From an uncultured Planctomycetia bacterium (GTDB lineage Bacteria; Omnitrophota; Gorgyraeia; CAYWPX01): 64,000 bases of DNA. Shown piece after piece: positions 578-64,000 of the stretch (position 1 is the stretch's first letter; every line of letters begins with the position of its first letter). Location: the NCBI GenBank assembly GCA_964460615.1, contig CAYWPX010000001.1:120073-184072 (forward strand), given 5' to 3'. Made by a program: the position numbers and the translations under genes. The notes beneath the pieces are model-generated. The model was given only the letters and a program-made list of their open reading frames with translations, had not been told where the DNA came from and did no database searches.

Positions 578-1342
578 ATGGAAAAGATCTCATTAAGTGT
601 TGTAGTGCTTACCAGAAACGAGGAGGACAATATAGCAAGATGCCTCAAAAGCGCGTCTTTTGCCGATGAGGTGATAGTGGTGGATGACGGTAGCACAGAC
701 AAGACTATCGAAATTGCCTCCAAGCTTGCCACAAAAATAGTAGAGAGAAAAATGGATGTCGAAGGTACTCACAGAAATTATGCTTATTCATTAGCCAAGA
801 ATAAATGGGTGCTCAGCCTTGACGCTGATGAAGAGATCAGTGTTGATCTAAAAAATGAAATAATCGAGACTCTTTCCAAGGAAACACCGCATGTTGTTTT
901 TTCCATGCCTATTAAAACTTATATTGGAAAGAGATGGATACAGCATGGCGGGTGGTATCCGGCAGGCAAAGACAGGCTTTTTCTTAAGGGCGAATTTAAG
1001 TACGAAGATGTAGGAGTGCACCCAAGGCCGATTTATAAAGGTACCTGCGGGCATCTTACAAAAGATATAGTCCATTATTCTTACAATGATTTTCATGATT
1101 TTTTTGTAAGCCTTAATAATCAGACTACCCAGGAAGCAAAAAAATGGATCCAGGACAAGCGAAAGATCAACGGCCCTAAAATATTTTATAAAATGTTTGA
1201 AAGGTTTTTTAAGTCATTTTTTCTTAAGAAAGGCTACAAGGATGGGTTATTGGGATTTATGGTCTCGTATTCAGGCAGCCTTTATCAATTATATACCTAT
1301 GCAAAGTACTGGGAAATGAAGAGTAATATGGAGAACAAATAA
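578..1342 (+). CDS. glycosyltransferase family 2
   Basis: N-terminal LSVVVLTRNEEDNIARCL...VIVVDDGSTDKT is the classic GT2 signature; stop overlaps next start (TAATG). Confidence 0.85.
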   Translation: MEKISLSVVVLTRNEEDNIARCLKSASFADEVIVVDDGSTDKTIEIASKLATKIVERKMDVEGTHRNYAYSLAKNKWVLSLDADEEISVDLKNEIIETLSKETPHVVFSMPIKTYIGKRWIQHGGWYPAGKDRLFLKGEFKYEDVGVHPRPIYKGTCGHLTKDIVHYSYNDFHDFFVSLNNQTTQEAKKWIQDKRKINGPKIFYKMFERFFKSFFLKKGYKDGLLGFMVSYSGSLYQLYTYAKYWEMKSNMENK

Positions 1343-3123: not shown

Positions 3124-3202
3124 GCACACACTTCGGGATAATTCGCACCTATAACTTAGTTTCCCATCGGGTCACCTAAGTTATGTGCTCATTAAGGAAA
3201 TA

Positions 3203-4909
3203 ATGATTATATTAGGAGTTGGAACACCTTTTTCGCATGACCCAGGAGCAGCGCTTTTGATCGATGGTGAGTTGATAGCCGCGGCTGATGAAGAGCGTTT
3301 TTCCAGGAATAAACACGCCATAAACGAATTCCCTGTTAAATCCATAAAATTTTGTCTCGCCAAAGCCGGCATCAAAGCAAGCGATGTTGAGATAGTGGCA
3401 TATCCCTGGAGCTATGCTGCCTACGAAGGAAAGATGTGGGATTTTTTTAAAAGAACCTGGTTAAGCAGGCCGAGCGATGCTTTTAAGTCTATTATAAAGG
3501 CTAAATCAAGGCATAAAGATAAGATTAAAAGACTGAATAATATCCTTTCCAGTTCAGGTATAAATCCCGATAAAGTAAAAAAATATTTTGTAGAACACCA
3601 CTTGGCGCATGCTTCAAGCGCTTACCATCTTTCGGGATTCAAGGATTCGGCTATTATGACCATGGATGCTGCCGGCGAATTTACATCAACGATGTTTGCC
3701 GAGGGTAAAGAAGGAAAGATAGCTAAAATTAAAGAATTTATATATCCGGACTCATTGGGGATGTTTTATTCGGTAGTTACAGAATATCTCGGTTTTGAGA
3801 TCAATGACGGGGAATATAAAGTAATGGGTATGGCGCCTTACGGCAATCCTGAAAAAGTGGATTTCAGTGATGTTATTAAATTTGATAAATCTGCTTACCA
3901 TGTGAATGATTTATTCACCTATTCAAGAAAAAGACATCGATATGAATCCGGCAAAATGTTCTCCAAACACATGGTCAAGATGTGGGGCCCGCCAAGGACC
4001 GGTGATGGGCTTACGGAGCCGTATATCCATATTGCTGCAGCTACTCAGAAAACTCTTGAGGATGTAACACTAGGCCTTATTGATACATATCTTGGCGATA
4101 TTCTTAAGAAGAATGGCGGGAATCTCTCTTTTGCAGGAGGTTGCGCTTTAAATGTAAGTCTGAACAGAAAACTCCTTGGCCATCCGCTTATAAAACATCT
4201 ATACGTTCAGCCTGCTTCAAGCGATGCCGGCACTCCTCTAGGGGCGGCTACATATGTAGCAAGCGAACTCGGAGAAAAGCTTAAGCCAATGACTCATGTA
4301 TACCTTGGCCCCAGCTACACAAATGATGAGATAAAAAAAGAGCTTGATAAGATAAAAGTAAAATATACCTATCACGAAGATATAGAAGAGGTAACCGCCC
4401 AGCTGCTTAGCCAGGGCCAGATAGTAGCATGGTTCCAGGGGGAGATGGAGTATGGCCCAAGAGCCCTTGGCAATCGTTCTATACTGGGGAATCCTACAAC
4501 CAAAGGCGTAAGTGACAGGATCAATGAGATAATAAAGTTCCGTGAGAACTGGAGGCCTTTCTGTCCGTCAATGCTTCCTGAATACGCAAAAGAGATCCTT
4601 GATTCGGATCATCCGGCACTTCACATGACTTTAAGCTTTAAGATAAGCGATAAATGGAAATCAAAGATACCCGAAGCGGTGCATGTAGACGGCACAATAA
4701 GACCGCAGGTGGTAGACCCTAAAACAAATCCCAAATACTACAAGCTTTTAAGCATCTTCAATAAAAAAACAGGAATACCTGTATTAATAAATACATCTTT
4801 GAATAGACGCGGCGAGCCAATGGTATGCTCCCCCAAGGATGCGATCAATATGTTCTATGGAAGCGGTTTAGAGAACCTGGTAATGGGTAATTATTTATTG
4901 AGGAAATAG
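3203..4909 (+). CDS. carbamoyltransferase, NodU/CmcH family (paralog 2)
   Basis: N-terminus MIILGVGTPFSHDPGAALLIDGE aligns with paralog 1; last ~315 aa identical to paralog 1. ORF track starts at GTG 3185; ATG 3203 chosen by alignment with paralog 1. Confidence 0.85.
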   Translation: MIILGVGTPFSHDPGAALLIDGELIAAADEERFSRNKHAINEFPVKSIKFCLAKAGIKASDVEIVAYPWSYAAYEGKMWDFFKRTWLSRPSDAFKSIIKAKSRHKDKIKRLNNILSSSGINPDKVKKYFVEHHLAHASSAYHLSGFKDSAIMTMDAAGEFTSTMFAEGKEGKIAKIKEFIYPDSLGMFYSVVTEYLGFEINDGEYKVMGMAPYGNPEKVDFSDVIKFDKSAYHVNDLFTYSRKRHRYESGKMFSKHMVKMWGPPRTGDGLTEPYIHIAAATQKTLEDVTLGLIDTYLGDILKKNGGNLSFAGGCALNVSLNRKLLGHPLIKHLYVQPASSDAGTPLGAATYVASELGEKLKPMTHVYLGPSYTNDEIKKELDKIKVKYTYHEDIEEVTAQLLSQGQIVAWFQGEMEYGPRALGNRSILGNPTTKGVSDRINEIIKFRENWRPFCPSMLPEYAKEILDSDHPALHMTLSFKISDKWKSKIPEAVHVDGTIRPQVVDPKTNPKYYKLLSIFNKKTGIPVLINTSLNRRGEPMVCSPKDAINMFYGSGLENLVMGNYLLRK

Positions 4910-27348: not shown

Positions 27349-27377
27349 AGGGTCAAGGGTTAAGGGATAAGCGGATA
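27349..27377 (+). repeat. heptad array (GGGTYAA-type) between the two ABC ATPase genes
   Basis: AGGGTCA AGGGTTA AGGGATA AGCGGATA; related TAGGGATAAGGGTTAG at about 61700. Confidence 0.6.
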
Positions 27378-30185: not shown

Positions 30186-30191
30186 TATAAT

Positions 30192-30256
30192 AGCTCATGG
30201 CTCGCAAGCTCATAGCTCATAGGTAAATTCCTAGAGCCCTGAACCTAGAGCCTGGG
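30192..30256 (+). repeat. heptad array (GCTCAT-type) plus duplicated CCTAGAGCC motif between the GNAT gene and leuC
   Basis: AGCTCATG GCTCGCA AGCTCATA GCTCATA; CCTAGAGCC-ctgaa-CCTAGAGCC. Confidence 0.7.
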
Positions 30257-30279
30257 GCAGTATTTAAGAGGGAATTAAA

Positions 30280-31545
30280 ATGGGATTTACGATAACAGAA
30301 AAAATACTTTTGAAGCATTCGGGTGTTAAAACGGTTACTCCCGGAGAGTTTATTTTAGCGGATGTTGATCTGGCACTTGGTAACGATATCACGGCACCCC
30401 TGGCTATAAAAGAATTTGAAGGGATGGGGTTAGGAAAGGTATTTGATAAAAATAAAATCGCATTAATACCCGACCATTTTACTCCCGCAAAGGATATGAA
30501 AAGCGCCAATCAGGCAAAGATCCTCAAGAATTTTGCCGATAGGTTTAAGATAAAGCACTACTATGAAGTGGGCAGGGTCGGCATAGAACATGCTTTTTTA
30601 CCCGAACAGGGAATAGTAATGCCCGGGGATCTCGTAATAGGGGCTGATTCACACACATGTACGTACGGTGCGCTCGGAGCTTTTTCTACCGGCGTGGGGT
30701 CTACGGACCTTGCGGCGGCAATGGCCACCGGCAAAGTCTGGTTTAAGGTCCCTGAGAGCATCAAATTTGTTTATACTGGAAAACTCAATAAATGGGTCGG
30801 AGGAAAAGACCTGATACTTTTTACGATAGGACAGATCGGCGTAGACGGAGCATTATATAAGGCGATGGAATTTACCGGGAACGCGATAAAAAAGCTTCCT
30901 ATGGACGATAGATTTGCCATGTGCAATATGGCGATTGAGGCCGGCGGGAAAAGCGGGATTATTGAGCCGGATGATATTACAGAAAACTATGTTTCGGCTA
31001 CATCAAAGATATCGAAAAGAAAATTTAAATTTTACTCCAGTGATAAAGATGCAAAGTATACCAAGGTTTATGAATACGATGTAAATAAGATGGAACCGCA
31101 GGTATCCTTGCCTCATTTACCTAGTAACGCGGTGCCGGTAAGCAAGGTAAAGAAATCGGTTGACCAGGTAGTGATAGGGTCTTGTACAAATGGCAGGATC
31201 TCAGATATACGGCTGGCTGCCAAAGTCCTTAAAGGAAAAAAGATTAACTCAAGAGTACGCCTTATTGTTATCCCTGCAACCCAGGCAGTATTCCAGCAGG
31301 CGATCAAAGAGGGGTTAGTCGATATATTTATCAATGCCGGCGGAGTATTCTCTACTCCGACTTGCGGGCCTTGTTTAGGCGGCCATATGGGAATATTGGC
31401 TGAAGGCGAAGTAGCCATAGCTACTACTAACAGGAACTTTGTTGGCAGAATGGGTAGTCTTAAAAGCGAAGTTATGCTCTCAAATCCGGCAGTCGCGGCT
31501 GCGTCTGCAATAACCGGAAAAGTTACACATCCTGATGAGATCTAA
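30280..31545 (+). CDS. leuC: 3-isopropylmalate dehydratase large subunit (short aconitase-X type)
   Basis: 421 aa; Cys ligands for 4Fe-4S ([15 protein letters not shown]); followed by LeuD-like small subunit. Confidence 0.85.
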
Positions 31546-38596: not shown

Positions 38597-38602
38597 AAAC
38601 TA

Positions 38603-38676
38603 GCGATTAGGCGATTAAGTGATTAGGTAATTAGGTAAAACCCAATCACATAATCGCATAATTACCAAATCGCTAT
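38603..38676 (+). repeat. octad-periodic imperfect inverted repeat between argJ and argB
   Basis: GCGATTAG GCGATTAA GTGATTAG GTAATTAG ...loop... CAATCACA TAATCGCA TAATTACC AAATCGC (arms reverse-complementary at about 26 of 33 positions). Confidence 0.75.
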
Positions 38677-38693
38677 ATTATTAAAGGAAAAAA

Positions 38694-54496: not shown

Positions 54497-55648
54497 ATGG
54501 ATAAAGTTAGACTTATTGCTACATCGACATTCGGGCTGGAAGCTATGGTTAAGCGTGAGCTTAGCAATCTCGGCTTTTATGACACGACCGGTGCTGATGG
54601 AAGAGTGGAATTCGACGCTAACTTAGCTGATATCCCGCGTTTAAATATAAATCTAAGAACTGCCGATAGAGTACTCTTAAAAATAGGTGAATTTAAAGCA
54701 TTTGATTTCGGCGAGCTTTTTGACGGGACAAAGGTACTTCCCTGGGAAGATTGGATACCTAAGGACGGTAAGATAAATGTCAGCGGTAAATGTGTCAAAT
54801 CTACTCTAATGAGTGTGCGCAGCTGTCAGTCGATAGTCAAAAAAGCTATTGTCGATAGATTAAAAGATAAATTAAAGACTGATTTGCTTCCTGAGTCTGG
54901 CCTGGAGTTTGGTATTCAGGTAGCAATGCTGAAGGATGCGGCTTTACTTACGCTAGATACTTCCGGAGCAGGGTTACACAAACGCGGCTATCGAACAGAA
55001 TCCGGTGAAGTTCCTATGCGAGAAAATCTTGCAGCTGCACTTGTAATGCTAAGTTCCTGGAAAAAAGATAAATTGCTCATAGATCCTATGTGCGGCTCAG
55101 GGACCATCCTCATAGAAGCCGCTATGATAGCCCGGAATATTGCTCCCGGATTAAAGCGTAAATTTGCCTCCGAGGATTGGCCTAAGATTGAAAAAAAGTA
55201 TTGGGACGAGGCGCGTAAGGCCGCTCGAGAGGCCATTAAGACCGAGGGGGTTTTAAATATTCTAGGTTTCGATATAGATCCGGATAGGATAAGGGATTGT
55301 AAGATTAACGCCAAAAATGCCGGAGTAGATAAGGACATAGTTTTTGAGGAAAAAGATATCAGAGAACTAAGGATAGATAAGCCGTCCGGCTATATTATCT
55401 CCAATCCTCCGTATGGTGTTGAGATGGGGACATTAAAAGAGTTGACGCATTTATATATCCTGATCCACAATATGTTTCGAAAGAAACTCGGCTGGGCAGT
55501 TTATATAATAACCGCAGATAAAAGATTTCCGGATTTTTTTAAACGCGCTAAACCTGACAGGGTAAGGAAGCTATTTAACGGTGGCCTGGAGGTAAATTAT
55601 TATCAGTATTTTGCAAAAGAGATAGAAAAGAAGGCAACTAGCTCATAG
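54497..55648 (+). CDS. THUMP-domain class I SAM-dependent RNA methyltransferase (RlmL/COG0116-like)
   Basis: N-terminal THUMP-like region; methyltransferase motifs IDPMCGSGT and ISNPPYG. Confidence 0.8.
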   Translation: MDKVRLIATSTFGLEAMVKRELSNLGFYDTTGADGRVEFDANLADIPRLNINLRTADRVLLKIGEFKAFDFGELFDGTKVLPWEDWIPKDGKINVSGKCVKSTLMSVRSCQSIVKKAIVDRLKDKLKTDLLPESGLEFGIQVAMLKDAALLTLDTSGAGLHKRGYRTESGEVPMRENLAAALVMLSSWKKDKLLIDPMCGSGTILIEAAMIARNIAPGLKRKFASEDWPKIEKKYWDEARKAAREAIKTEGVLNILGFDIDPDRIRDCKINAKNAGVDKDIVFEEKDIRELRIDKPSGYIISNPPYGVEMGTLKELTHLYILIHNMFRKKLGWAVYIITADKRFPDFFKRAKPDRVRKLFNGGLEVNYYQYFAKEIEKKATSS

Positions 55649-55711
55649 CTCATTGCTCATAGTTCATAGTAAAAGCAATAACTGAAAGCTGATAGCTGAT
55701 AGCTGAAAGCT
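55640..55711 (+). repeat. heptad array pair: (AGCTCAT)x4 overlapping the stop codon, spacer, (GCTGAWA)x4
   Basis: AGCTCAT AGCTCAT TGCTCAT AGTTCAT ...17 nt... ACTGAAA GCTGATA GCTGATA GCTGAAA GCT. Confidence 0.75.
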
Positions 55712-55731
55712 AATTTGATAGGAAATAAAAA

Positions 55732-55986
55732 ATGTCAAAGATTAAACTGGATATGCATGATATATTTAATAAGTCCGAAGAGATTGAGTTGGAGCTTAAT
55801 AGGGTTATTGATGAAGCAATGCGAAAAAAGATCCAGCTTGTTGAGATAATCCCGGGTAAGGGGAGCGGCCAACTCAAAAAACATGTACTAAGATTTTTAC
55901 AAAATCCGGAAATCAAAAAACTATATCATCGCATAGAAAAAGACGATAAGAATTTTGGCAGGATCTTTGTGCATTTTAAGTTTTAA
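55732..55986 (+). CDS. Smr-domain protein
   Basis: 84 aa; LDMHD...IIPGKGSGQLKKHV matches the Smr LDLHG...HGKG pattern. Confidence 0.7.
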   Translation: MSKIKLDMHDIFNKSEEIELELNRVIDEAMRKKIQLVEIIPGKGSGQLKKHVLRFLQNPEIKKLYHRIEKDDKNFGRIFVHFKF

Positions 55987-55991
55987 GAGAA

Positions 55992-56064
55992 TGGCTCATG
56001 GTTCATAGCTCATTGCTCATAGTAAAAGCAAGAACTGAAGACTGTGAGCTGAAAGCTGAAAGCT
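55992..56064 (+). repeat. heptad array pair (GCTCAT-type then GCTGAA-type)
   Basis: GGCTCAT GGTTCAT AGCTCAT TGCTCAT ... GAGCTGAA AGCTGAA AGCT, ending 8 nt before ATG 56073. Confidence 0.75.
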
Positions 56065-56072
56065 AAAAAATA

Positions 56073-56765
56073 ATGACTAAAGAAATTCTATCCAAAGATA
56101 TACCAGCACCGAAGCTTATCAGATCCCGAAGGCGAAGCATCGCCTTGGAAGTCAGGCATGACGGCACCCTTGTAGTGAGGGCGCCGCATTTTCTTCCGGA
56201 TGCCCAAATACGAGAGTTTATTAGTAAGAGGCGCGCTTGGATAGATAATGTTTATAATCGTACACGTGAGAAGTTGCAATTATTTAAACCTAAGCAATTT
56301 GTTAATGGTGAGAAATTTCTTTATCTAGGCAATGAGTATACTCTGCATATAACCCAGGATATGGACGGTAAGTTTCTTTTTGAAAACCAATTTATACTTA
56401 ATGAACGGTATATAGCTAAAGCAAAAATACTCTTTGAGCGTTGGTATAGACAAGAGGCATTTATGCTTTTTACCAAAAGATGCAAATGCTATGCTCAATA
56501 TATGAGTGTAAGCTATAAAAGTATCAGTCTATCAAATGCCAAACACCGCTGGGGTTCATGCTATCCGAATGGAGGGCTTGGATTTAATTGGCGTTTAGTG
56601 ATGGCGCCGGAATGCATTATTGATTATGTAGTTGTGCATGAATTGGCGCATCTGGTTGAGGCCAATCACTCTAAACGGTTTTGGGCGCTAGTAGAAAAAA
56701 CGTTTCCAAATTATAAAGAAGCAAAGTTATGGCTAAGGGATAATCAACATAGGCTTAAGATATAA
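56073..56765 (+). CDS. YgjP-like M48-family metallopeptidase (DUF45/SprT-like, HExxH)
   Basis: HELAHLVEANHSKRFWALVE zinc motif; 230 aa. Confidence 0.8.
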   Translation: MTKEILSKDIPAPKLIRSRRRSIALEVRHDGTLVVRAPHFLPDAQIREFISKRRAWIDNVYNRTREKLQLFKPKQFVNGEKFLYLGNEYTLHITQDMDGKFLFENQFILNERYIAKAKILFERWYRQEAFMLFTKRCKCYAQYMSVSYKSISLSNAKHRWGSCYPNGGLGFNWRLVMAPECIIDYVVVHELAHLVEANHSKRFWALVEKTFPNYKEAKLWLRDNQHRLKI

Positions 56766-56880
56766 GCTCATAGCTCATGGTTCATAGCTCATACTAGAAA
56801 TAGTACGCAGTACACTGTACAAAGTACACAGTAAAAACATTACTTGTGTTCTGGTGACTGATAGCTGAAAGCTGACGACT
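56766..56880 (+). repeat. heptad arrays: (GCTCATA)x4, (AGTACAC)x5, GCTGA-type units
   Basis: GCTCATA GCTCATG GTTCATA GCTCATA; AGTACGC AGTACAC TGTACAA AGTACAC AGTAAAA; GATAGCT GAAAGCT GACGACT. Confidence 0.75.
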
Positions 56881-56912
56881 TCCGCCACAAAGCGTTGGCG
56901 GACAAGGATAGC
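56879..56912 (+). repeat. hairpin repeat element CTTCCGCCA-N8-TGGCGGACARG, copy 1
   Basis: Same ~35-nt element recurs at 59805-59839; rearranged variant at 59144-59191. Confidence 0.7.
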
Positions 56913-57105
56913 CAATATATTTATCCTTCACAATAATCCAATCAACAAATCTCCGATTTAATTTCAAATGTAGAAAATAATCAGAAAAAAGTAGACTGAA
57001 ACTATGTCCTTCCAAAACACTCCGTTATATAATTAAATATATTGAAAAAAGGAACGATCAGAAAATTGTCTGCCGTAAGACAGTCTTAAATCGAAAGGAG
57101 ATTGT

Positions 57106-57753
57106 ATGTTCACGCATCATGGGAAAACAATGATCGACCCGAAAGATTCTGTGCTTTTACTAATTGACCATCAAAGCGGTTTATTTAATCTTGTTAAAGA
57201 TATGGAAGTTGTTGATCTGCGCAATCATGTCATAGCTCTTGCCAAGGTGGCAACTAAGCTAAATATCCCTGTTATCACTACTGCCTCAGTGCCGGAAGGG
57301 GCAAATGGGCCGGTTATTCCGGAGATTAAGGTATTTGCTCCAAACGTTAAGTACATTCCGAGGCAAGGCCAGATAAATGCGTGGGATGTGCCTCTCTTTG
57401 TAAGTGCGGTTGAAGAGACAAAGCGTAAAACCCTTATTATGACCGGCACGCTCACAAGCGTATGCCTGGCATTCCCGGCCTTATCGGCAGCGTCAGCCGG
57501 ATACAAGGTATATGCAGTTGTGGATGCATCGGGGAACTGGAGCAAGATGGCGACGGATCTCACGATAGCGCGTCTCGCTCAGGCAGGAGTTATACCTATA
57601 GATACGTTCGCTGTCATAGGCGAGCTGCAGCAGACCTGGAACCGGCCTGATGCATTGGATTATGCCGAGATATTCGGTGAAAATATAATACCAAATTACC
57701 GTTTGCTTATGGAAAGCAAAAGCAATATTCAGGAGCCTGTTTACCAAAAATAG
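57106..57753 (+). CDS. isochorismatase-family hydrolase
   Basis: LLLIDHQ motif and catalytic Cys in TGTLTSVCL; 215 aa. Confidence 0.8.
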
Positions 57754-57792
57754 TTGCGTAATTAGAAGAAATTTATTTATTAAATCATAAAA

Positions 57793-57821
57793 AGGAGCTC
57801 ATTTTTGGGCTCCTTTTTTTG
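57793..57821 (+). terminator. intrinsic terminator after the isochorismatase gene
   Basis: AGGAGC-loop-GCTCCT followed by TTTTTTT. Confidence 0.6.
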
Positions 57822-57932
57822 TTCAAATTCAGGTATTTTGCCTTGTATAGGAAATCACTAAGTGCTATAATTAATCATTATAAAAGGAAACAAGCGTGAG
57901 CGAACGTAACTATAATTAGTGTTACTAGATAA

Positions 57933-57962
57933 GCAATCCCTATGGAGGGGGTTGCTTTTTTT
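57933..57962 (+). terminator. intrinsic terminator
   Basis: GCAATCCC-tatggag-GGGGTTGC followed by TTTTTTT. Confidence 0.65.
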
Positions 57963-58042
57963 GTTGGAAGGGTGATGGGGGTAGGCTTCAGGTCGCAGGT
58001 CGCCCCTCGTTTTACCCGGGGTTTACTGTGGTTGCAAGTGAA

Positions 58043-58115
58043 GATTTAAAACCTGAGACTTGCTACCGCAATCTGCGTGTGTTTCGAGCGAAGCAGAGGG
58101 ATAACCTGTGACATG
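58043..58115 (+). repeat. ~70-nt direct repeat, copy A (upstream of the DUF1559 gene)
   Basis: TTTAAA..AGACTTGCTA.C...AATC.GCG.GTGT..CGAGCGAAGCAGAGGGAT shared with 58906-58978. Confidence 0.7.
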
Positions 58116-58179
58116 TAACATAATAACTGATGGCTAATGACTGATAGGAAAATTATCAGAGTAAATTTAAAAGAATATT

Positions 58180-58878
58180 ATGAATAAAAACAATTCTTTA
58201 AAAGGATTTACTTTATTAGAACTTTTGGTTGTTATTGTTGTTATTGGTGTCTTGGCAGGGCTTCTTCTCCCCGTTATGAGCGGAGTCAGGGAGCAGGGTA
58301 GGCGTATTACTTGTCTCAACAATCTTCGCCAGCAAGGTATTGCATGGTATATGTATCTTGATGAGCATAATGATTGTTTTCCTGCATATAGTGATCCTCC
58401 AAATGATACGCAATGTATGGAAACCACTTTTGGGGGCAAAGCCGGTGATAGTGGGTTCGCAGCTACGTCGAGACCTCTTAATCGATATCTCGGGATAAAC
58501 AATACAACTCCTGCGGACGTTTTTCATTGTCCCGACGATATAAAAGCAGCTCAAGGCCAGAGCAGAACAGTCTTCGATGTTTTTGGGAACTCATATTATA
58601 TTAACCCATGCATTTTACTTTATGGGGTGACGGATAGAAGGCCCTTGGCTTCAATCACCAATCCACGTAATAAGGTGTGGTTTGAGATGTGTTCTTTGGA
58701 TATGGTCCCGGGACATAGTGGAAAAGGATTTCAAGGTAATTTCACGCCAGTAATGGTGCTTTTTGTAGATGGGCATGTAAAGGGGCCGTATCTTTCTGAC
58801 AGTGAATTTGACTGGTTTGATAATCCATCAAAATCCGTATGCTGGTATCCTAATGCTACAGAGGATCCTCTTGATTAG
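58180..58878 (+). CDS. prepilin-type N-terminal cleavage/methylation domain protein, DUF1559 (H-X9-DG) family
   Basis: KGFTLLELLVVIVVIG prepilin leader, conserved CxNNLRQ region, C-terminal LFVDGHV. Confidence 0.85.
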   Translation: MNKNNSLKGFTLLELLVVIVVIGVLAGLLLPVMSGVREQGRRITCLNNLRQQGIAWYMYLDEHNDCFPAYSDPPNDTQCMETTFGGKAGDSGFAATSRPLNRYLGINNTTPADVFHCPDDIKAAQGQSRTVFDVFGNSYYINPCILLYGVTDRRPLASITNPRNKVWFEMCSLDMVPGHSGKGFQGNFTPVMVLFVDGHVKGPYLSDSEFDWFDNPSKSVCWYPNATEDPLD

Positions 58879-58905
58879 GAGAGTAGGGTTTTATATTGCT
58901 AGTAA

Positions 58906-58978
58906 AATTTAAACTTAAGACTTGCTATCTGTAATCAGCGGGTGTCCCGAGCGAAGCAGAGGGATGGCATGGAACAGG
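58906..58978 (+). repeat. ~70-nt direct repeat, copy B (downstream of the DUF1559 gene)
   Basis: About 80% identical to 58043-58115 in the same orientation. Confidence 0.7.
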
Positions 58979-59034
58979 AGTTTTGAAAGCTGATTTTAAA
59001 AATAGTTATCTATCCTGTCAAATTCGTAAAATTT

Positions 59035-59082
59035 AGATATAACTTATTTTAAATCAAATATTATACAGTGGTGCCAGGCACC
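59035..59082 (+). repeat. conserved upstream element ending in palindrome GGTGCC-A-GGCACC, copy 1
   Basis: AGATATAACTTATTTTAAATCAAATA..TTATA..GTGGTGCCAGGCACC; near-identical at 61088-61136, partial at 63202-63239. Confidence 0.75.
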
Positions 59083-59143
59083 AGAAAAAGTACTGGAGCT
59101 CGTGATCGTACTGATAACTCCAGCTACAAAGCTTCGACATAAA

Positions 59144-59191
59144 CCATTGGCGGATAAAGTTGGCGGGCAAGGATAGCTGATCGCTGATAGG
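59144..59191 (+). repeat. variant of the CCGCCA/TGGCGG element fused to GCTGATA heptads, ending at the SD
   Basis: ACCATTGGCGGATAAAGTTGGCGGGCAAGGATAGCTGATCGCTGATAGG; left arm inverted relative to the copies at 56879 and 59805. Confidence 0.6.
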
Positions 59192-59200
59192 AGGAAAACC

Positions 59201-59788
59201 ATGAAAGTAATAGCATTTAACGGCAGCTCGCGAAAAGAAGGTAATACTGCAATTCTAATTAAGCTTGTGCTTAAGGAATTAGAGAAAGATGGTATCAAGA
59301 CTGAACTAGTGGAATTGGCCGGTGAAAAAATTCAAGGTTGCATTGCCTGTTACAAATGTGTTGCCAACAAAGATAAAAAATGCGCCATAAATGACGACAT
59401 AGTTAACGAGTGTATAGATAAAATGGATAAGGCGGATGGTATTATCATAGGTTCCCCTACATATTTTGCTGATTGCACTTCACAGACAAAGGCGCTTATT
59501 GAACGGGCTGGGTTTGTATCGAGAGCAAATGGAGGTATGTTTAAGCGTAAAATAGGTGCCGCAGTTGTATCTGTGAGGCGAGCTGGGGCGATACATGCTT
59601 TTAATAGTATAAATCACTTTTTTACAATAGGTGAGATGATAATAGTCGGGTCTAGCTACTGGAATATAGGTATAGGTAGAGAAATCGGCGATGTGGAAAA
59701 AGACGAAGAAGGTTTAAAGGTAATGAGTACACTTGGGAAGAATATGGCGTGGTTACTTAAGAAGATAGCTCCAGGCTCTGGGCTCTAG
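59201..59788 (+). CDS. flavodoxin-like NADPH-dependent FMN reductase / iron-sulfur flavoprotein family
   Basis: MKVIAFNGSSRKEGNT, GSPTYF flavin-binding motifs; Cys cluster CIACYKC...C; GGAGGA SD. Confidence 0.8.
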   Translation: MKVIAFNGSSRKEGNTAILIKLVLKELEKDGIKTELVELAGEKIQGCIACYKCVANKDKKCAINDDIVNECIDKMDKADGIIIGSPTYFADCTSQTKALIERAGFVSRANGGMFKRKIGAAVVSVRRAGAIHAFNSINHFFTIGEMIIVGSSYWNIGIGREIGDVEKDEEGLKVMSTLGKNMAWLLKKIAPGSGL

Positions 59789-59804
59789 GGAAAAAGCTCA
59801 TGGC

Positions 59805-59839
59805 TTCCGCCACAAAGCGTTGGCGGACAGGCATGGCGC
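59805..59839 (+). repeat. hairpin repeat element CTTCCGCCA-N8-TGGCGGACAGG, copy 2
   Basis: Same element as 56879-56912. Confidence 0.7.
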
Positions 59840-59978
59840 ATAGTAAAAATGAAGGACGATAGGCGAGGGATGAGAGGATAGTTTGGAGTTGGGAGCGAAA
59901 TCTATCTAAAGATAGATTTCAGGAGTTGGGAGTAAAAAAGTAAAAGAAAAAATGGGCGCCGTCCATATATATATCTAA

Positions 59979-60518
59979 ATGAAAAACTTCATAAATTTTA
60001 TCGTAAAGTACCTAGTATTTGTTTTTTTAGTTGTATTTACATTTATATCTAGCAGTTGTTGTGAGTTTGCTACTTCTGTTGCCCTAACGCACAAAATATC
60101 AAGTATTAGAGTTATTTCCGAAATTGATACAGGAGAAGCAGGAATTATTCAGATAAACGAAATTGATATTACTAAAGTTGCCGAGGATGTTTTTTTAAAG
60201 GGTGGGATAAGGGTGCTAAACAATAAAACATATGAAACGGAAAAATATCCCGGCACATTAAAAGTAATTATTAAATGGATTAAAATTAATGAGGAAAAAC
60301 ACTGCTGTAATTATACAATAAATTATGAATTATCGCAGTTCGATTCTATTGTGCAAGAAAATAACCCATATATTATTTATTCATCAGTTAGTGGGTCGGC
60401 TGGGCTAAAGGATATTAAAGAGAATATTTTAGGTTCTATAAGAAATTGGGTAAAAGATAGTATTAAAAAATCCCAAATATTTATTAAATATGAAAAAAAA
60501 GTCGATGCTTCTATTTAA
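59979..60518 (+). CDS. hypothetical exported or lipid-anchored protein
   Basis: 179 aa; N-terminal hydrophobic segment then Cys (FISSSCC); AT-rich coding region. Confidence 0.5.
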   Translation: MKNFINFIVKYLVFVFLVVFTFISSSCCEFATSVALTHKISSIRVISEIDTGEAGIIQINEIDITKVAEDVFLKGGIRVLNNKTYETEKYPGTLKVIIKWIKINEEKHCCNYTINYELSQFDSIVQENNPYIIYSSVSGSAGLKDIKENILGSIRNWVKDSIKKSQIFIKYEKKVDASI

Positions 60519-60560
60519 TAAAAAATAGGTGTGTCCCTATTTAAAATGGAAGATTAATAA

Positions 60561-61046
60561 ATGATTAAAATCAGATTTATTAATATATTTCTGACGCTAA
60601 TATTAGTAGTTTTAATGAAAACTTCCGGCATTTTTGCCGAAGGAATGCTTAATATCGAAGCAATTGATCTTCTTGATGAGTACAAAATAGTTTGTACCAA
60701 AACCGATCCTTCCTTTGAAGCTACCACTAGCGGTAAATTTATCTTTGATCCGGAAAAAAATAGCAATTACCCAATAGCATTTGTGGTTATGCTCACCCAG
60801 GATAGATCCGAAGGAGAGAATGAAGACGATCTCGATACAGTTATTAAGATGGTCATTTTAAAGGACCCTGTTTACAAAGACCTGATAAATAGCGAAAAAT
60901 CCGCAGACTCCGCCATTATACACATACCCAAGGCGAATGTCAGAAAGTCAGAAACCGAAAAGCATAATCTATCGATCAGTAAATATGAGGATGAACTAAA
61001 AAATTCAGGTGAATATAAAAATATAATATTTCCAGATAAGAAATAG
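60561..61046 (+). CDS. hypothetical secreted protein
   Basis: 161 aa; signal peptide ending SGIFA-EG; AT-rich. Confidence 0.5.
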   Translation: MIKIRFINIFLTLILVVLMKTSGIFAEGMLNIEAIDLLDEYKIVCTKTDPSFEATTSGKFIFDPEKNSNYPIAFVVMLTQDRSEGENEDDLDTVIKMVILKDPVYKDLINSEKSADSAIIHIPKANVRKSETEKHNLSISKYEDELKNSGEYKNIIFPDKK

Positions 61047-61087
61047 CAGGAGAGAGAGTGTAGTTCCTATTAAATTCTTGAAAATTA

Positions 61088-61136
61088 AGATATAACTTAT
61101 TTTAAATCAAATAGTTATAACGTGGTGCCTGGCACC
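61088..61136 (+). repeat. conserved upstream element ending in palindrome GGTGCC-T-GGCACC, copy 2
   Basis: About 45/49 identical to 59035-59082; its 3' end runs into the LamG reading frame. Confidence 0.75.
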
Positions 61137-61639
61137 GTAAAGGCACAGGAGAGACGGTAGGAAGATTTTATACTAGCTCTGGAGTCTCGTTAGTTGAAGG
61201 AGAGTGGTATAATCTTGCTTTTACTAGAAATTACAATACTTCCTCTATCTTAATTGACGGGGTTTCACTGCCCACAATTCAGCCCATAGATTGGGCCAGT
61301 AATATGGAAATTCTAACATCGCCAGTTTATTTGGGCAGTGCCGCAACAGCACCAGGATATGGATTAAGAGGATACTTAGACAATTTACAGATTTGGAATT
61401 ATGCGCGAACTGAGCAGCAATTAAAGGATTCCATTACTAATTTACCGAATGGTAACGAGGAAGGCTTAATGGGGTATTGGAATTTTGATAATATTCAAAA
61501 TGGTGTTGTGCCTGACTTAACTGAATATGGTAATAATGGTTTTATTAATCCGCCTATTTCTACGCCAGAGCCTGTATCAATGCTTTTATTTGGTATCGGT
61601 GGATGGGTGTTGGCGCTATTAAGAAAAAAACGCTCATAA
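61121..61639 (+). pseudogene. LamG-like (concanavalin-type) PEP-CTERM protein, 5'-truncated fragment
   Basis: Frame open from 61121 encodes a LamG C-terminal half (EGEWYNLAFTRNYNTSSILIDGV, DNLQIWNYARTEQQL) and a PEP-CTERM tail (TPEPVSMLLFGIGGWVLALLRKKRS); no N-terminal half or signal peptide; first in-frame ATG at 61304. Confidence 0.6.
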
Positions 61640-61764
61640 TATTGGATTGACTAAATTCTACCTACGCAGTATTATTTAGGAGTAGGAGTAAGGAAAAGGG
61701 TTCCTTACTGAATAGGGATAAGGGTTAGAAAATAATTAGTAGCTGTCCCTAATTAACGTACCCT

Positions 61765-61974
61765 ATGCATTCTGCAATAGATTGGATTCCCATAGAAACT
61801 GTATCATTTAGTAGAATAAAAGAATTCATGACTAATGTAACGACTAAGCTTCAAAATATGCTGCTCGAAGATGTTCTTAAAAACGTTGAAATGGATAAAA
61901 AAGAACGTGAGCTGTTTAAAGCTTTGTATAAAAGTAATGAAGCAATTCTTTGTATTAAATGGCCGGTTTATTAA
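61765..61974 (+). CDS. hypothetical small protein
   Basis: 69-aa ORF; no recognisable motif or clear SD. Confidence 0.3.
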   Translation: MHSAIDWIPIETVSFSRIKEFMTNVTTKLQNMLLEDVLKNVEMDKKERELFKALYKSNEAILCIKWPVY

Positions 61975-62002
61975 AAACGTAAGTTAATTTGGAGGTGGTA
62001 AT

Positions 62003-62047
62003 ATGCAAAACCTCGCGTTAAAAGTAGCTGGATTTGTTTTTGGGTTA
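62003..62047 (+). pseudogene. truncated 5' copy of the small membrane-protein gene
   Basis: ATGCAAAACCTCGCGTTAAAAGTAGCTGGATTTGTTTTTGGGTTA with GGAGGTG SD matches the 5' end of 62111 and 63736; frame stops after 26 codons. Confidence 0.5.
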
Positions 62048-62110
62048 GAAGTAAAAAACGGGTCACACCTATTTATTTGAAATTACTATAGAAAACCGGG
62101 AGGTTCAACC

Positions 62111-62296
62111 ATGCAAGACATCGCGTTAAAAGTAGCTGGATTTGTTTTTGGGTTAGTGGCTATATTACATCTTTTGAGAGTGTTATTTAAAGTAAAGTTT
62201 ACGGCAAATAATATTGTAATTCCTCTATGGCTAAGTGTAGTTGCTTCGATAGTGGCGCTGTTGCTGGCGCTTTTTATGTTCGCGTGTTTGCAATAG
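62111..62296 (+). CDS. small membrane protein, two predicted TM helices (copy 1)
   Basis: 61 aa; paralog of 63736-63924; C-terminal 24 aa identical between copies. Confidence 0.5.
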   Translation: MQDIALKVAGFVFGLVAILHLLRVLFKVKFTANNIVIPLWLSVVASIVALLLALFMFACLQ

Positions 62297-62430
62297 GGGA
62301 AGTTTGGAGTTGGCCTAGATGCCTATACCACTCCTAGTCCTCGTGGTGCTTAACGGCATCGCGGCATGAAATCGCGCATCGCTTGATTTCAGGAGTATGC
62401 GGTAACAAGTCGCAGGCCTCAGATTACATG
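62297..62430 (+). repeat. conserved GC-richer non-coding element downstream of the small membrane-protein gene
   Basis: 62279-62370 appears identical to 63909-64000 where the window ends; contains a 16-codon hydrophobic mini-ORF (MPIPLLVLVVLNGIAA). Confidence 0.6.
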
Positions 62431-62474
62431 CTAAAAGAGAAGAAAATTTTAGTAAAAGTGAGAAAAACATTAAA

Positions 62475-62876
62475 ATGAAAAAGATAAATGTAATACTAGT
62501 AATATTATTAAGCATAAGTTGTATGGGATTTTCGTTTATGAAGAAAGAATTGTCAAAAGAAAAGATATTGGAAATCGCCATTAATAGGGCAAATGAACTT
62601 GGGTTTACTCTCAATCAGGTTACTCCTTACTTTGACGAGGGAAACAAAAGACTTAAAGAACACTCAAGAAATAGCGGCGTGTCCACCTATAACGAAAAGA
62701 AAGAAGAGTGGGTATATGACGCGCCATCTACCCCGACAAAAAAATATCCTGAATTAGAAGATCGAAATTATCAGGCGGTATATTTTGCCCCCAAAGAAAT
62801 GCAGCTTGGTGGCGATCTCTGGATCTTTATAGACAAGAACACCGGGGAAGTGATCTCGTATGTGTTTGGGAAATAA
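62475..62876 (+). CDS. hypothetical lipoprotein or secreted protein
   Basis: 133 aa; N-terminal signal-like segment with Cys (LLSISCMG). Confidence 0.5.
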   Translation: MKKINVILVILLSISCMGFSFMKKELSKEKILEIAINRANELGFTLNQVTPYFDEGNKRLKEHSRNSGVSTYNEKKEEWVYDAPSTPTKKYPELEDRNYQAVYFAPKEMQLGGDLWIFIDKNTGEVISYVFGK

Positions 62877-62880
62877 AGAT

Positions 62881-63010
62881 GCTCAAGGCTCCAGGCTCTA
62901 GGGAAAAACAAAATACCGCTCCAGGTTCGGGGGTGAGTCCCCTTCGGCGAGGCTATGCTTCGCTTTGCACGGGTGAGAGGAAAACCTAGAGCTCTGAGCC
63001 TAGAGCCAAG
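62881..63010 (+). repeat. GC-rich structured intergenic element with long-range inverted repeat
   Basis: GGCTCCAGGCTCTAGGG ...~80 nt... CCTAGAGCTCTGAGCCTAGAGCC; internal GGGG-tgagt-CCCC hairpin; related motifs at 59769-59795 and 30230-30256. Confidence 0.55.
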
Positions 63011-63201
63011 AGCGGGTTTTGTGCTATATTAAATTGATGGAACAACAAAACCCTTTGTGTTATAATAAATGGTAACAGATTCGAGTAACACGGAAAGGGA
63101 ACAAGAAGCAATGGGTCTTTTTGGTAGCAAACAAAATAAAAGTATAAAGGTGAATTAATTTAAGCCGGGGATAAAATTCTCGGTTTTTTTGTTCAAAACT
63201 C

Positions 63202-63239
63202 TTTTAAATTTAAGTATTTATAAAGCGGTGCCTGGCACC
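63202..63239 (+). repeat. partial copy 3 of the GGTGCC-T-GGCACC palindrome element
   Basis: TTTTAAAT...TATTTATAAAGCGGTGCCTGGCACC, 22 nt upstream of ATG 63262. Confidence 0.6.
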
Positions 63240-63261
63240 GAAAAATTAAAAAGGAGAAAAA

Positions 63262-63651: not shown

Positions 63652-63735
63652 ATTCTAAAAATTAATTAAGCAATAAAAGTGGTGAGTAATAATAAGGGAA
63701 AAGGGGACGCTTCTATTTAAGTTGAAGGCACAACC

Positions 63736-63924
63736 ATGCAAAACCTCGCACTAAAAGTAGCTGGATGTATATTTGTTATAGTGGCTATTATGCAGCTTTT
63801 GAGAGTGCTATTTAAGGTAAAGATTGTGGTTAATGATAATATTATTGTTCCTATATGGCTTAGCGTGGTGGCTTCGATAGTGGCGTTGTTACTTGCGCTT
63901 TTTATGTTCGCGTGTTTGCAATAG
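63736..63924 (+). CDS. small membrane protein, two predicted TM helices (copy 2)
   Basis: 62 aa; paralog of 62111-62296. Confidence 0.5.
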   Translation: MQNLALKVAGCIFVIVAIMQLLRVLFKVKIVVNDNIIVPIWLSVVASIVALLLALFMFACLQ

Positions 63925-64000
63925 GGGAAGTTTGGAGTTGGCCTAGATGCCTATACCACTCCTAGTCCTCGTGGTGCTTAACGGCATCGCGGCATGAAAT

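What the first reader, a model, noticed from the sequence alone, without database searches (positions are those of the whole stretch)
62881..63010. GC-rich structured intergenic element with long-range inverted repeat
The spacer after the 62475-62876 gene has markedly higher GC than its surroundings. It contains GGCTCCAGGCTCTAGGG and, about 80 nt later, its near-complement CCTAGAGCTCTGAGCCTAGAGCC, with an internal GGGG-loop-CCCC hairpin. Related CCTAGAGCC and GCTCCAGGCTCT motifs occur at 30230-30256 and 59769-59795. This may be a structured RNA or another member of the repeat families in this region.
Basis: seen in the sequence. Interest (0 to 1): 0.45.

Follow-up and report, generated by a model that had tools for sequence, protein, structure and literature searches.

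The report
Heptamer-repeat hairpin after a stop codon
The GC-rich spacer is a real 133-base imperfect palindrome whose arms are tandem 7-base repeats. It is one of many such hairpins that begin at stop codons in this Omnitrophota-like genome and in other phyla, and it is not a conserved RNA gene.

Summary
At 62881-63013, three GCTCNAG units face four complementary CTNGAGC units across 82 nt. GC is 0.56 against 0.40 for the window. The predicted fold beats shuffles on both strands (+ z -2.3, - z -4.7).

The element is not a known RNA family: Rfam gives no hit. Its 81-nt core is unique in everything I could fetch. The only orthologous copies come from the same strain, and a 96.6%-identical copy of the upstream gene carries an unrelated heptamer hairpin after its stop codon.

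It belongs to a class:
- In the window, 19 of 22 period-7 arrays are intergenic (p = 2e-17).
- In 12 spacers the first array starts within -10 to +11 nt of a stop codon.
- Similar arrays or hairpins occur in Omnitrophota, Endomicrobia, Thermodesulfobacteriota and Acidobacteriota contigs.
- In Vicinamibacterales the dnaK-dnaJ spacer always holds such a hairpin, yet diverges 6-25% where dnaK differs by under 1%.

The closest known kind is the heptanucleotide simple-repeat hairpin, such as cyanobacterial STRR, whose function is still unknown.

My best reading is a slippage-derived quasi-palindrome that forms a 3'-UTR stem-loop when transcribed, probably a 3'-end barrier or insulator. That function is inferred, and there is no sense-strand RNA signature. 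It is a new member of a known kind, of modest interest.

The parts
62881..62903 (+). Left arm: tandem heptamers GCTCAAG GCTCCAG GCTCTAG GG. It starts 4 nt after the TAA stop codon (62874-62876) of the 133-aa gene.
   Evidence: TRF reports period 7, 3.1 copies. Inverted-repeat pairs I1-I3. Helices 62881-84/63010-13 and 62887-98/62996-63007 in the minimum-energy fold.
62904..62915 (+). A-rich unpaired linker, AAAAACAAAATA. The motif GGGAAAAA at the arm-linker junction is shared with the related arm at 59788-59795.
   Evidence: Sequence; direct-repeat family D11.
62916..62928 (+). A displaced fourth GCTCCAG unit (CCGCTCCAGGTT) that forms the 5' side of the inner stem.
   Evidence: Direct repeat D1, 62888-62903 versus 62918-62933, 81% identical. 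Helix 62918-27/62983-92, 9 bp.
62929..62943 (+). Mini-hairpin 1: GGGGG-UGAGU-CCCCU.
   Evidence: Helix 62929-33/62939-43; sequence.
62944..62972 (+). Mini-hairpin 2. In the minimum-energy fold it is UCGGCGAGGC...GCUUUGCACGG. An alternative 7-bp stem, GCGAGGC-UAU-GCUUCGC, spans 62948-62964.
   Evidence: Helix 62944-53/62962-72. The alternative stem is read directly from the sequence.
62973..62984 (+). Unpaired purine-rich linker, GTGAGAGGAAAA.
   Evidence: Unpaired in the + strand minimum-energy fold.
62985..63013 (+). Right arm: tandem heptamers CCTAGAG CTCTGAG CCTAGAG CCAAGAGC, complementary to the left arm. It has one more unit than the left arm, so several pairing registers are possible.
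   Evidence: TRF reports period 7, 4.1 copies. Inverted-repeat pairs I1-I3. BLAST similarity to 30221-30265.
63014..63023 (+). GGGTTTTGTG: a short, interrupted T run 3 nt after the outer stem. It is too weak to count as a canonical intrinsic terminator tail.
   Evidence: Sequence. No + strand terminator was called here, whereas a canonical one is called at 63162-63186.
59768..59795 (+). Related left-arm array, GCTCCAG GCTCTGG GCTCTAG GGAAAAA. It overlaps the last codons and the stop of the FMN-reductase gene (59201-59788).
   Evidence: Family D11, 89% identity. BLAST E 0.002. Pfam FMN_red.
30190..30262 (+). Related hairpin between the GNAT acetyltransferase and aconitase-family (LeuC-like) genes. 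Its right arm is CCTAGAG CCCTGAA CCTAGAG CCTGGGG.
   Evidence: CCTAGAGCC sites. BLAST E 0.014. Fold z -3.2 on + and -3.6 on -.

Best explanation
The element is a quasi-palindrome built from tandem heptanucleotide repeats. An outer stem of GCTCNAG units pairs with CTNGAGC units and encloses an inner stem and two small GC-rich hairpins.

It is one copy of a genome-wide, fast-evolving class of such arrays that sit in intergenic DNA and begin at the stop codon of the upstream gene.

Origin (inferred from established knowledge): replication slippage makes 7-nt arrays, and copying between the two arms by template switching keeps them complementary.

Action (inferred, not shown): the element starts 4 nt after the stop codon with no terminator in between, so it is probably transcribed as the start of the 3' UTR of the 133-aa gene. 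There it would fold into a branched stem-loop of about 133 nt. That stem-loop would block 3'-to-5' exonucleases and partly insulate the gene from the promoter-like site and small transcript that follow. This is the role proposed for REP elements and for cyanobacterial STRR hairpins.
For: Anatomy:
- Period-7 arrays on both arms.
- Three alternative pairing registers.
- Nested helices.
- A fold better than shuffles on both strands.

Class membership in the window:
- 22 of 53 TRF rows are period 7, and 19 of those 22 lie in the 9% of the window that is intergenic (p = 1.6e-17).
- In 12 spacers the first array starts -10 to +11 nt from the upstream stop codon. This includes the two long spacers of 340 and 385 nt.

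Same pattern elsewhere:
- In 733 kb of unrelated loci, 33 arrays are intergenic and 17 coding (p = 9e-16).
- Left arrays there start 1-12 nt after stops, and right arrays end 18-23 nt before the next start.
- Of 27 hairpins, 25 lie between co-directional genes by a simple ORF call.

Rapid turnover with retained architecture:
- A 96.6%-identical copy of the upstream gene (L048) loses homology exactly at the stop codon. It carries a different (GCAAATR)n hairpin there.
- Vicinamibacterales strains with dnaK 99.2-99.9% identical have dnaK-dnaJ spacers only 75-94% identical.
- Every one of those spacers keeps a periodic-arm hairpin, and 3 of its 37 pairs show compensatory changes.

Same unit elsewhere:
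- A scan for three tandem GCTCNAG units found at least 120 metagenome loci.
- 28 of 135 arrays have a complementary array within 220 nt, against 3 in control segments.

Literature:
- Heptanucleotide repeats are the commonest long simple repeats in many bacteria, and slippage has been proposed as their source (PMC4679880, citing Mrazek 2007; PMC4692102).
- STRR hairpins of 7-bp repeats lie between genes such as hupS and hupL. They may increase transcript stability or couple translation (PMC2670836).
Against: - There are no expression data, so transcription through the element and any 3' end at its base are assumed.
- There is no sense-strand signature. This element folds better on the - strand (-61.1 versus -56.7 kcal/mol).
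- Over 27 hairpins the sense strand wins 13 to 14, and G-U pairs number 77 against 70. That fits a DNA-level symmetric process as well as, or better than, selection on an RNA.
- Some heptamer-rich spacers fold no better than shuffles: 55630-55720 has z +0.17 and L048 118-262 has z +0.9.
- Most GCTCNAG arrays in metagenomes are solitary rather than paired.
- The T run after the stem is too weak for a canonical terminator.
- The 81-nt core has no relative anywhere, so nothing can be said about constraint on it.
Confidence: 0.55

Rival explanations
1. The element is a functionless by-product. Heptamer slippage and arm-to-arm template switching generate and reshuffle these palindromes in DNA that tolerates them, and any RNA structure is incidental.
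For: - There is no sense/antisense asymmetry: 13 to 14 by fold energy, and 77 to 70 G-U pairs.
- Turnover is extreme compared with the flanking genes.
- Some arrays do not fold better than shuffles.
- Most arrays are solitary.
- The units differ from locus to locus.
Against: - The arrays start at the stop codon even in spacers of 340-385 nt, where neutral placement should be scattered.
- A hairpin is retained at the orthologous dnaK-dnaJ spacer across species whose units differ, with some compensatory changes.
Confidence: 0.28
2. The periodic arms are a binding array. A multimeric protein that reads a short motif every 7 nt, on DNA or on RNA, binds the arms, and the hairpin is secondary.
For: - The 7-nt (sometimes 8-nt) spacing is strict.
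- Part of each unit is conserved and part is variable: GCTC-N-AG here, GCTCATA/GTTCATA elsewhere.
- Solitary arrays are common.
- Protein binding to heptamer repeats has been speculated for Nostoc and Beggiatoaceae (bioRxiv 10.1101/2022.06.06.494920; PMC4679880).
Against: One genome carries many unrelated units (GCTCNAG, GYTCATR, GTACGGA, AGCTGTA, AGGGTTA, and the 8-mer GATTAGGY). A single sequence-specific reader is therefore unlikely. No candidate protein was identified.
Confidence: 0.08
3. The element is a miniature mobile element (MITE- or REPIN-like). The arms are terminal inverted repeats and the GC-rich core is foreign cargo.
For: - The size (133 nt) fits, and the arms of 22-29 nt resemble terminal inverted repeats.
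- GC is well above the host average.
- Similar arms occur at two other loci.
- Homology between two copies of the upstream gene ends at the element's edge.
Against: - The core occurs once in 64 kb and nowhere else in the loci held, nor in the plasmid or phage collections.
- The flanks show no target-site duplication...AAAGAT | element | GGGTTTTG....
- No transposase, RAYT or integrase is encoded nearby.
- The arms are tandem arrays with slipped registers, not a fixed terminal sequence.
Confidence: 0.06
4. The element is a conserved structured non-coding RNA or cis-regulatory RNA, the first reader's first option, possibly encoded on the - strand, which folds better.
For: The fold z-score is -4.67 on the - strand and -2.26 on the + strand. 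The structure is branched, with two small hairpins.
Against: - Rfam gives no hit at gathering score or at E <= 1.
- There is no homolog of the core.
- The element is absent from relatives of both flanking genes.
- It is replaced by an unrelated hairpin next to a 96.6% gene copy.
- Nearly all genes in the window are on the + strand, and no promoter-like site was called for a - strand transcript here.
Confidence: 0.03

Closest known systems
Cyanobacterial STRR (short tandemly repeated repetitive) sequences, including the hairpins they form between genes such as hupS and hupL
   Same: Both are tandem 7-bp units in intergenic DNA, often as inverted arrays that can form hairpins between co-directional genes. 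In both, the sequence varies while the structure is kept. The function is unknown, with transcript stability or translational coupling proposed (PMC2670836).
   Different: The host is an Omnitrophota-like bacterium, not a filamentous cyanobacterium. The units (GCTCNAG and others) are not, as I recall them, the named STRR units. This genome uses many different units. The regular start at the stop codon is, to my knowledge, not described for STRR.
Long simple sequence repeats with 7-nt units (Mrazek et al. 2007). Examples are GGGAATC in Xanthomonas, GGGGAYT in Nostoc and TAACTGA in Beggiatoaceae.
   Same: Heptanucleotide arrays are strongly over-represented in intergenic DNA. Some occur as inverted pairs. 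Length and sequence vary between close relatives, and slippage is the proposed source (PMC4692102; PMC4679880).
   Different: The described families have one dominant unit per genome. Some are G-quadruplex-prone, and some lie just upstream of start codons. Here the units are diverse and not G-rich, and they are anchored to the upstream stop codon.
REP/BIME elements of enterobacteria
   Same: Both are intergenic imperfect palindromes inside transcription units. From my own knowledge of the literature, REP stem-loops protect upstream mRNA from 3' exonucleases, and REPs close to stop codons can affect translation of the upstream gene. The element is proposed to work in this way.
   Different: REPs are a conserved sequence of about 35 nt present in hundreds of copies and are linked to RAYT transposases. 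This element has no conserved core, has periodic arms, and no RAYT was seen.
Intrinsic (Rho-independent) terminators
   Same: Both have a GC-rich stem just downstream of a gene.
   Different: The stem here is far longer and branched. Only TTTT follows, 3 nt after the stem, and the scan did not call it. The same spacer holds a canonical terminator at 63162-63186.

Membership tests
Heptanucleotide simple-repeat hairpins (STRR-like, generic class) | Tandem repeats of a 7-nt unit, at least 3 copies | tested here: met
   TRF reports 62881-62902 at 3.1 copies and 62985-63013 at 4.1 copies.
Heptanucleotide simple-repeat hairpins (STRR-like, generic class) | Intergenic location, with genome-wide intergenic enrichment of 7-nt arrays | tested here: met
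   19 of 22 arrays are intergenic against a 9% intergenic fraction, p = 1.6e-17.
Heptanucleotide simple-repeat hairpins (STRR-like, generic class) | Inverted arrays able to pair into a hairpin | tested here: met
   Arms are 82-87% complementary in three registers. Fold z is -2.3 on + and -4.7 on -.
Named cyanobacterial STRR families | The specific unit sequences of those families and a filamentous cyanobacterial host | tested here: not met
   The units here are GCTCNAG/CTNGAGC. The host's nearest relatives are Candidatus Omnitrophota. The named unit sequences are recalled from memory, not checked in a database.
Rfam RNA families (any) | A covariance-model match at gathering score | tested here: not met
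   No match in the window at gathering score. Nothing overlaps the element at E <= 1.
Intrinsic terminator | A short GC-rich stem followed within 0-2 nt by at least 5 T in 8 | tested here: not met
   No + strand call at the element. The tail is GGGTTTTGTG.
REP/REPIN | A conserved palindromic sequence in many copies, associated with a RAYT gene | tested here: not met
   The core is unique in the window and in the loci held. No RAYT or transposase is among the neighbouring proteins scanned. The whole genome was not available.
MITE | Terminal inverted repeats, a target-site duplication and multiple copies | tested here: not met
   The arms resemble inverted repeats, but there is no flanking duplication and only a single copy of the core.
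Integron attC site | R''/R' core sites (RYYYAAC ... GTTRRRY) and an integron integrase nearby | tested here: not met
   The left end, GCTCAAG, matches RYYYAAC at 6 of 7 positions. There is no GTTRRRY at the right end. No integrase is in the neighbourhood. Similar hairpins sit inside housekeeping operons.

The most novel reading that the evidence does not exclude
Heptamer-array hairpins anchored to stop codons may be an undescribed class of cis-acting elements found across phyla (Omnitrophota, Endomicrobia, Thermodesulfobacteriota, Acidobacteriota). In this reading the structure is selected, and the repeat arms make it hypermutable. Gain or loss of 7-nt units would then give heritable, reversible tuning of 3'-end stability, termination or cistron coupling: an expression rheostat built from a simple repeat. 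The element at 62881-63013 would be one working copy.
Probability: 0.18. Interest if true: 0.6.

Novelty: new member of a known kind. Interest (0 to 1): 0.32.

Why it matters
The element itself is ordinary. It explains a GC-rich, strongly folding spacer without invoking a new RNA gene, and annotators should not call it an sRNA or riboswitch.

The class is more interesting. Intergenic heptanucleotide arrays have been known since 1990, and their function is still unknown. This analysis adds three points:
- They occur well outside cyanobacteria and proteobacteria.
- They are anchored to stop codons.
- At one orthologous spacer (dnaK-dnaJ in Vicinamibacterales) the hairpin persists while its sequence diverges 6-25%, next to a gene that differs by under 1%.

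These points give concrete, testable handles on whether the structures are selected or are by-products of replication.

Tried and rejected
Searches that found nothing useful:
- Rfam at gathering score on the window and on seven related loci gave nothing on any heptamer hairpin. An E <= 1 search around the element gave only chance-level hits elsewhere in the spacer. I had recalled a 'Termite-leu' motif as a possible match for the Endomicrobium hairpins in leu operons, and no Rfam family matched them.
- Relatives of the 133-aa upstream protein were absent from genome contigs and metagenome contigs. The large protein search found only three relatives.
- The source contig (NCBI, 331.6 kb) could not be retrieved.

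Comparisons that turned out uninformative:
- The only true orthologs of the element, L049 and L050, are from the same strain and identical. L049 has a run of 10 N inside the left arm, which I read as an assembly gap and not as evidence of variation.
- The more distant relatives of the PEGA gene (L051-L060) all come from one strain and have no heptamer arrays at that gene.
- I first took L048 to be the ortholog, and then the downstream tandem copy. L049 shows that the copy after the window end lacks L048's 136-nt insertion. L048 is therefore a third variant, either a paralog or another strain, and I use it only as 'a 96.6% copy'.

Ideas dropped:
- Sensitive BLAST of the 81-nt core gave only chance-level hits.
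- Plasmid and phage collections gave no match.
- I looked by eye at whether the arrays supply stop codons in all three frames. I dropped the idea because stops are frequent by chance in AT-rich sequence and several arrays lack them.
- An integron-like reading, prompted by homology ending at the stop codon and by an smr gene flanked by similar hairpins, was rejected. There are no core sites and no integrase, and the same hairpins occur in housekeeping operons.

Full report
**What is there**

- The arms are 62881-62902 and 62985-63006. They are 22 nt long, 82% complementary and 82 nt apart. Two further pairing registers, shifted by 7 and 14 nt, also exist.
- Those extra registers arise because both arms are tandem arrays of a 7-nt unit. 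The left arm is GCTCAAG GCTCCAG GCTCTAG, and the right arm is CCTAGAG CTCTGAG CCTAGAG CCAAGAG (TRF).
- GC reaches 0.56, against 0.40 for the window.
- CCTAGAGCC occurs five times against 0.33 expected.
- The left arm is 88-89% identical to 59763-59795, and the right arm is 76% identical to 30221-30265.

The minimum-energy fold on the + strand is -56.7 kcal/mol (z -2.26). It has these helices:
- An outer stem: 62881-84 with 63010-13, and 62887-98 with 62996-63007.
- An inner stem made by a displaced fourth GCTCCAG unit: 62918-27 with 62983-92.
- Two small hairpins: 62929-43 and 62944-72.

The - strand folds slightly better, at -61.1 kcal/mol with z -4.67.

**Host and context**

Nearly all genes in the window are on the + strand.
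- The aconitase-family protein at 30280-31545 is closest to Candidatus Omnitrophota MAGs, at 66-69% identity.
- The PEGA lipoprotein downstream of the element has many homologs named Candidatus Omnitrophota.
- A DUF1559 protein with an N-terminal methylation motif and a PEP-CTERM fragment fit the PVC group.
- The element starts 4 nt after the TAA stop codon.
- Downstream lie a TGnTATAAT promoter-like site (about 63058-63066, read by eye), a 15-codon ORF, a canonical terminator at 63162-63186 and then the PEGA gene.
- No integrase, transposase or RAYT is encoded nearby.

**It is one of a class**

Reading all the spacers shows tandem heptamers, sometimes octamers, in many of them. Examples are at 27349, 30190, 33422, 38606, 41667, 42926, 48245, 54324, 55639, 55991, 56765, 59768 and 62881.
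- Period 7 accounts for 22 of the 53 TRF rows in the window.
- 19 of those 22 lie in the 9% of the window that is intergenic (p = 1.6e-17).
- In 12 spacers the first array begins -10 to +11 nt from the upstream stop codon. This includes the two long spacers of 340 and 385 nt.
- Several arrays are inverted pairs that fold well: 38597-38680 has z -6 to -8, and 30186, 41660 and 42920 have z -3 to -4 on at least one strand.
- Others do not fold better than shuffles: 55630-55720 has z +0.2.

**The class is not confined to this genome**

The loci fetched through the aconitase-family gene show the same arrays or hairpins in an Omnitrophota MAG (L002), several Endomicrobium MAGs, a Thermodesulfobacteriota MAG (L018), Candidatus Tharpella (L041) and others.
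- Across 733 kb of these loci, 33 arrays are intergenic and 17 coding (p = 9e-16).
- Left arrays start 1-12 nt after stops, and right arrays end 18-23 nt before the next start codon.

- Most are soil contigs with GC of 0.6-0.7.
- Many have a complementary CTNGAGC array a short distance downstream.
- 28 of 135 arrays have such a partner within 220 nt, against 3 in control segments.
- One of these contigs, L061, is from Vicinamibacterales (Acidobacteriota). Its DnaK is 93% identical to a named MAG.

**Conservation**

For the element itself there is none to measure.
- The only orthologous copies (L049, L050) are from the same strain and identical.
- Relatives of the PEGA gene at 84% nt identity lose homology 13 nt before the ATG.
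- A 64% ortholog of the upstream gene has no such element in the 53 nt available after its stop.
- A 96.6%-identical copy of the upstream gene (L048, a paralog or another strain) loses homology exactly at the stop codon. It carries an unrelated (GCAAATR)n/(GCAATTN)n hairpin there.
- The 81-nt core has no relative in any sequence held, nor in the plasmid or phage collections.
- Rfam has nothing.

For the class, the dnaK-dnaJ spacer of Vicinamibacterales is informative.
- Every contig has a periodic-arm hairpin between the stop and the next start.
- The units differ between contigs: GGCTCAA, GGTTCAA, GGCTYYG with CTGAAGC, and an 8-mer GGGAGTTC.
- Strains whose dnaK genes are 99.2-99.9% identical have spacers only 75-94% identical.
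- The consensus fold has 37 pairs, 3 of them with compensatory changes.

**RNA or DNA?**

Sense orientation is known for 27 hairpins in low-GC loci.
- The sense strand folds better in 13 and the antisense strand in 14.
- G-U pairs number 77 against 70.

There is therefore no sign of selection acting on the sense RNA specifically. The symmetry fits a DNA-level process that keeps the arms alike. It also fits stems that are mostly Watson-Crick. The anchoring to stop codons, even in long spacers, is the one feature that neutral slippage does not predict.

**What is known**

- Heptanucleotide repeats are the most abundant long simple repeats in many bacterial genomes. Polymerase slippage has been proposed as the reason (Mrazek 2007, as summarised in PMC4679880 and PMC4692102).
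- In filamentous cyanobacteria, STRR sequences of 7-bp repeats form hairpins between genes such as hupS and hupL. Their function is unknown, and transcript stability or translational coupling has been suggested (PMC2670836).
- Regulatory roles for heptamer arrays near start codons have been speculated in Nostoc and Beggiatoaceae (bioRxiv 10.1101/2022.06.06.494920; PMC4679880).
- Searches of the held library found nothing on such arrays in Omnitrophota or Endomicrobium, and no bacterial paper containing the array sequences searched.

**Verdict**

The element is a real, stable, GC-rich quasi-palindrome, but it is not a conserved RNA gene. It is a new member, in a phylum where the class has not been reported, of the known kind 'intergenic heptanucleotide-repeat hairpin'.

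The most likely account has two parts:
- Origin: slippage and arm-to-arm copying produce and maintain the palindrome. This is inferred.
- Action: it forms a 3'-UTR stem-loop that limits exonucleolytic decay and insulates the gene. This is inferred by analogy with REP and STRR.

I put the whole statement at about 0.55. Identity with the class alone I put near 0.9, and the proposed function nearer 0.35. The main rival, at 0.28, is that it does nothing.

Noticed in passing
window 62101-62876 and 63726-64000 (continuing in L049 1116-1567): A unit is tandemly duplicated around the hairpin and the PEGA gene. The unit is a 61/62-aa membrane-protein gene, a 'GTTTGGAGTTGG...TTTCAGGAGT' element and the 133-aa gene. 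The copies are about 92% identical over 452 aligned nt. A truncated third start of the small gene lies at 61991-62048.
   Followed up: partly
window 63054-63190: An extended -10 promoter-like site (TGTTATAAT, about 63058-63066) is followed by a 15-codon ORF (MGLFGSKQNKSIKVN, 63113-63160). A canonical terminator then follows at 63162-63186. This could be a small independent transcript between the hairpin and the PEGA gene.
   Followed up: no
window 59040-59087, 61094-61141, 63197-63244: A 48-nt block is repeated three times, 65-79% identical to the reference copy. It ends in the palindrome GGTGCCWGGCACC and lies upstream of genes or ORFs, which suggests a shared promoter or operator region.
   Followed up: no
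window 55641-55713 and 55994-56066: Two 73-nt heptamer elements, 85% identical, flank an 84-aa Smr-domain gene (55732-55986; Pfam E 5e-15). The layout resembles a duplication or insertion bounded by the repeat.
   Followed up: partly
window 56880-56904 and 59805-59829: A small GC hairpin, TTCCGCCACAAAGCGTTGGCGGACA, occurs twice, each time nested beside heptamer arrays (direct-repeat family D13, 84% identical). A looser variant lies near 59135-59165.
   Followed up: no
window 38597-38680: This is the strongest hairpin in the window, and it is built from 8-nt rather than 7-nt units (GYGATTAN facing its complement). Fold z is -6.1 on the + strand and -8.5 on the - strand.
   Followed up: partly
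window 55649-62474 versus L045: In a relative (L045), the homolog of the RlmL-like methyltransferase gene (window 54497-55648, 76% nt identity) is followed after 39 nt by the homolog of the 133-aa gene. The roughly 7 kb between those two genes in the window is therefore a variable island of small genes separated by repeat elements.
   Followed up: partly
L048 816-997: Downstream of the alternative hairpin there is a weak match to the c-di-GMP-I-GGC riboswitch (24.9 bits, E 0.006, below the gathering score of 59). It is followed by a canonical terminator.
   Followed up: no
L004 3865-3989 and 4505-4625; L019 5488-5603 and 14629-14753; L022 11269-11401; L016 7404-7492: Endomicrobium MAGs carry a multi-copy spacer element. 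Heptamer arms (AGAGTGA/AGTGTGG types) enclose small hairpins of the types GTTTCGGCnnnGCCGAAAC and GTTTTCGCnnnGCGAAAAC, two in most copies, in either order. No Rfam family matches it.
   Followed up: partly
L187-L191 (3421-3546) and L061 2176-2306: In Vicinamibacterales the dnaK-dnaJ spacer hairpin diverges 6-25% between strains whose dnaK genes differ by 0.1-0.8%. Some C:G to U:A compensatory changes are seen.
   Followed up: yes
L051 1334-7684 (and L053-L056): In a related Omnitrophota, the PEGA gene sits next to genes with SMODS, SIR2_2, DUF87 and PD-(D/E)XK domains. This looks like an anti-phage defence island that is absent from the window.
   Followed up: no
window 2095-2394 and 3953-4252: A 300-nt stretch, 99% identical, is shared by two adjacent paralogous genes (1342-3051 and 3185-4909). 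A 70%-identical stretch precedes it, which suggests recent gene conversion between tandem paralogs.
   Followed up: no
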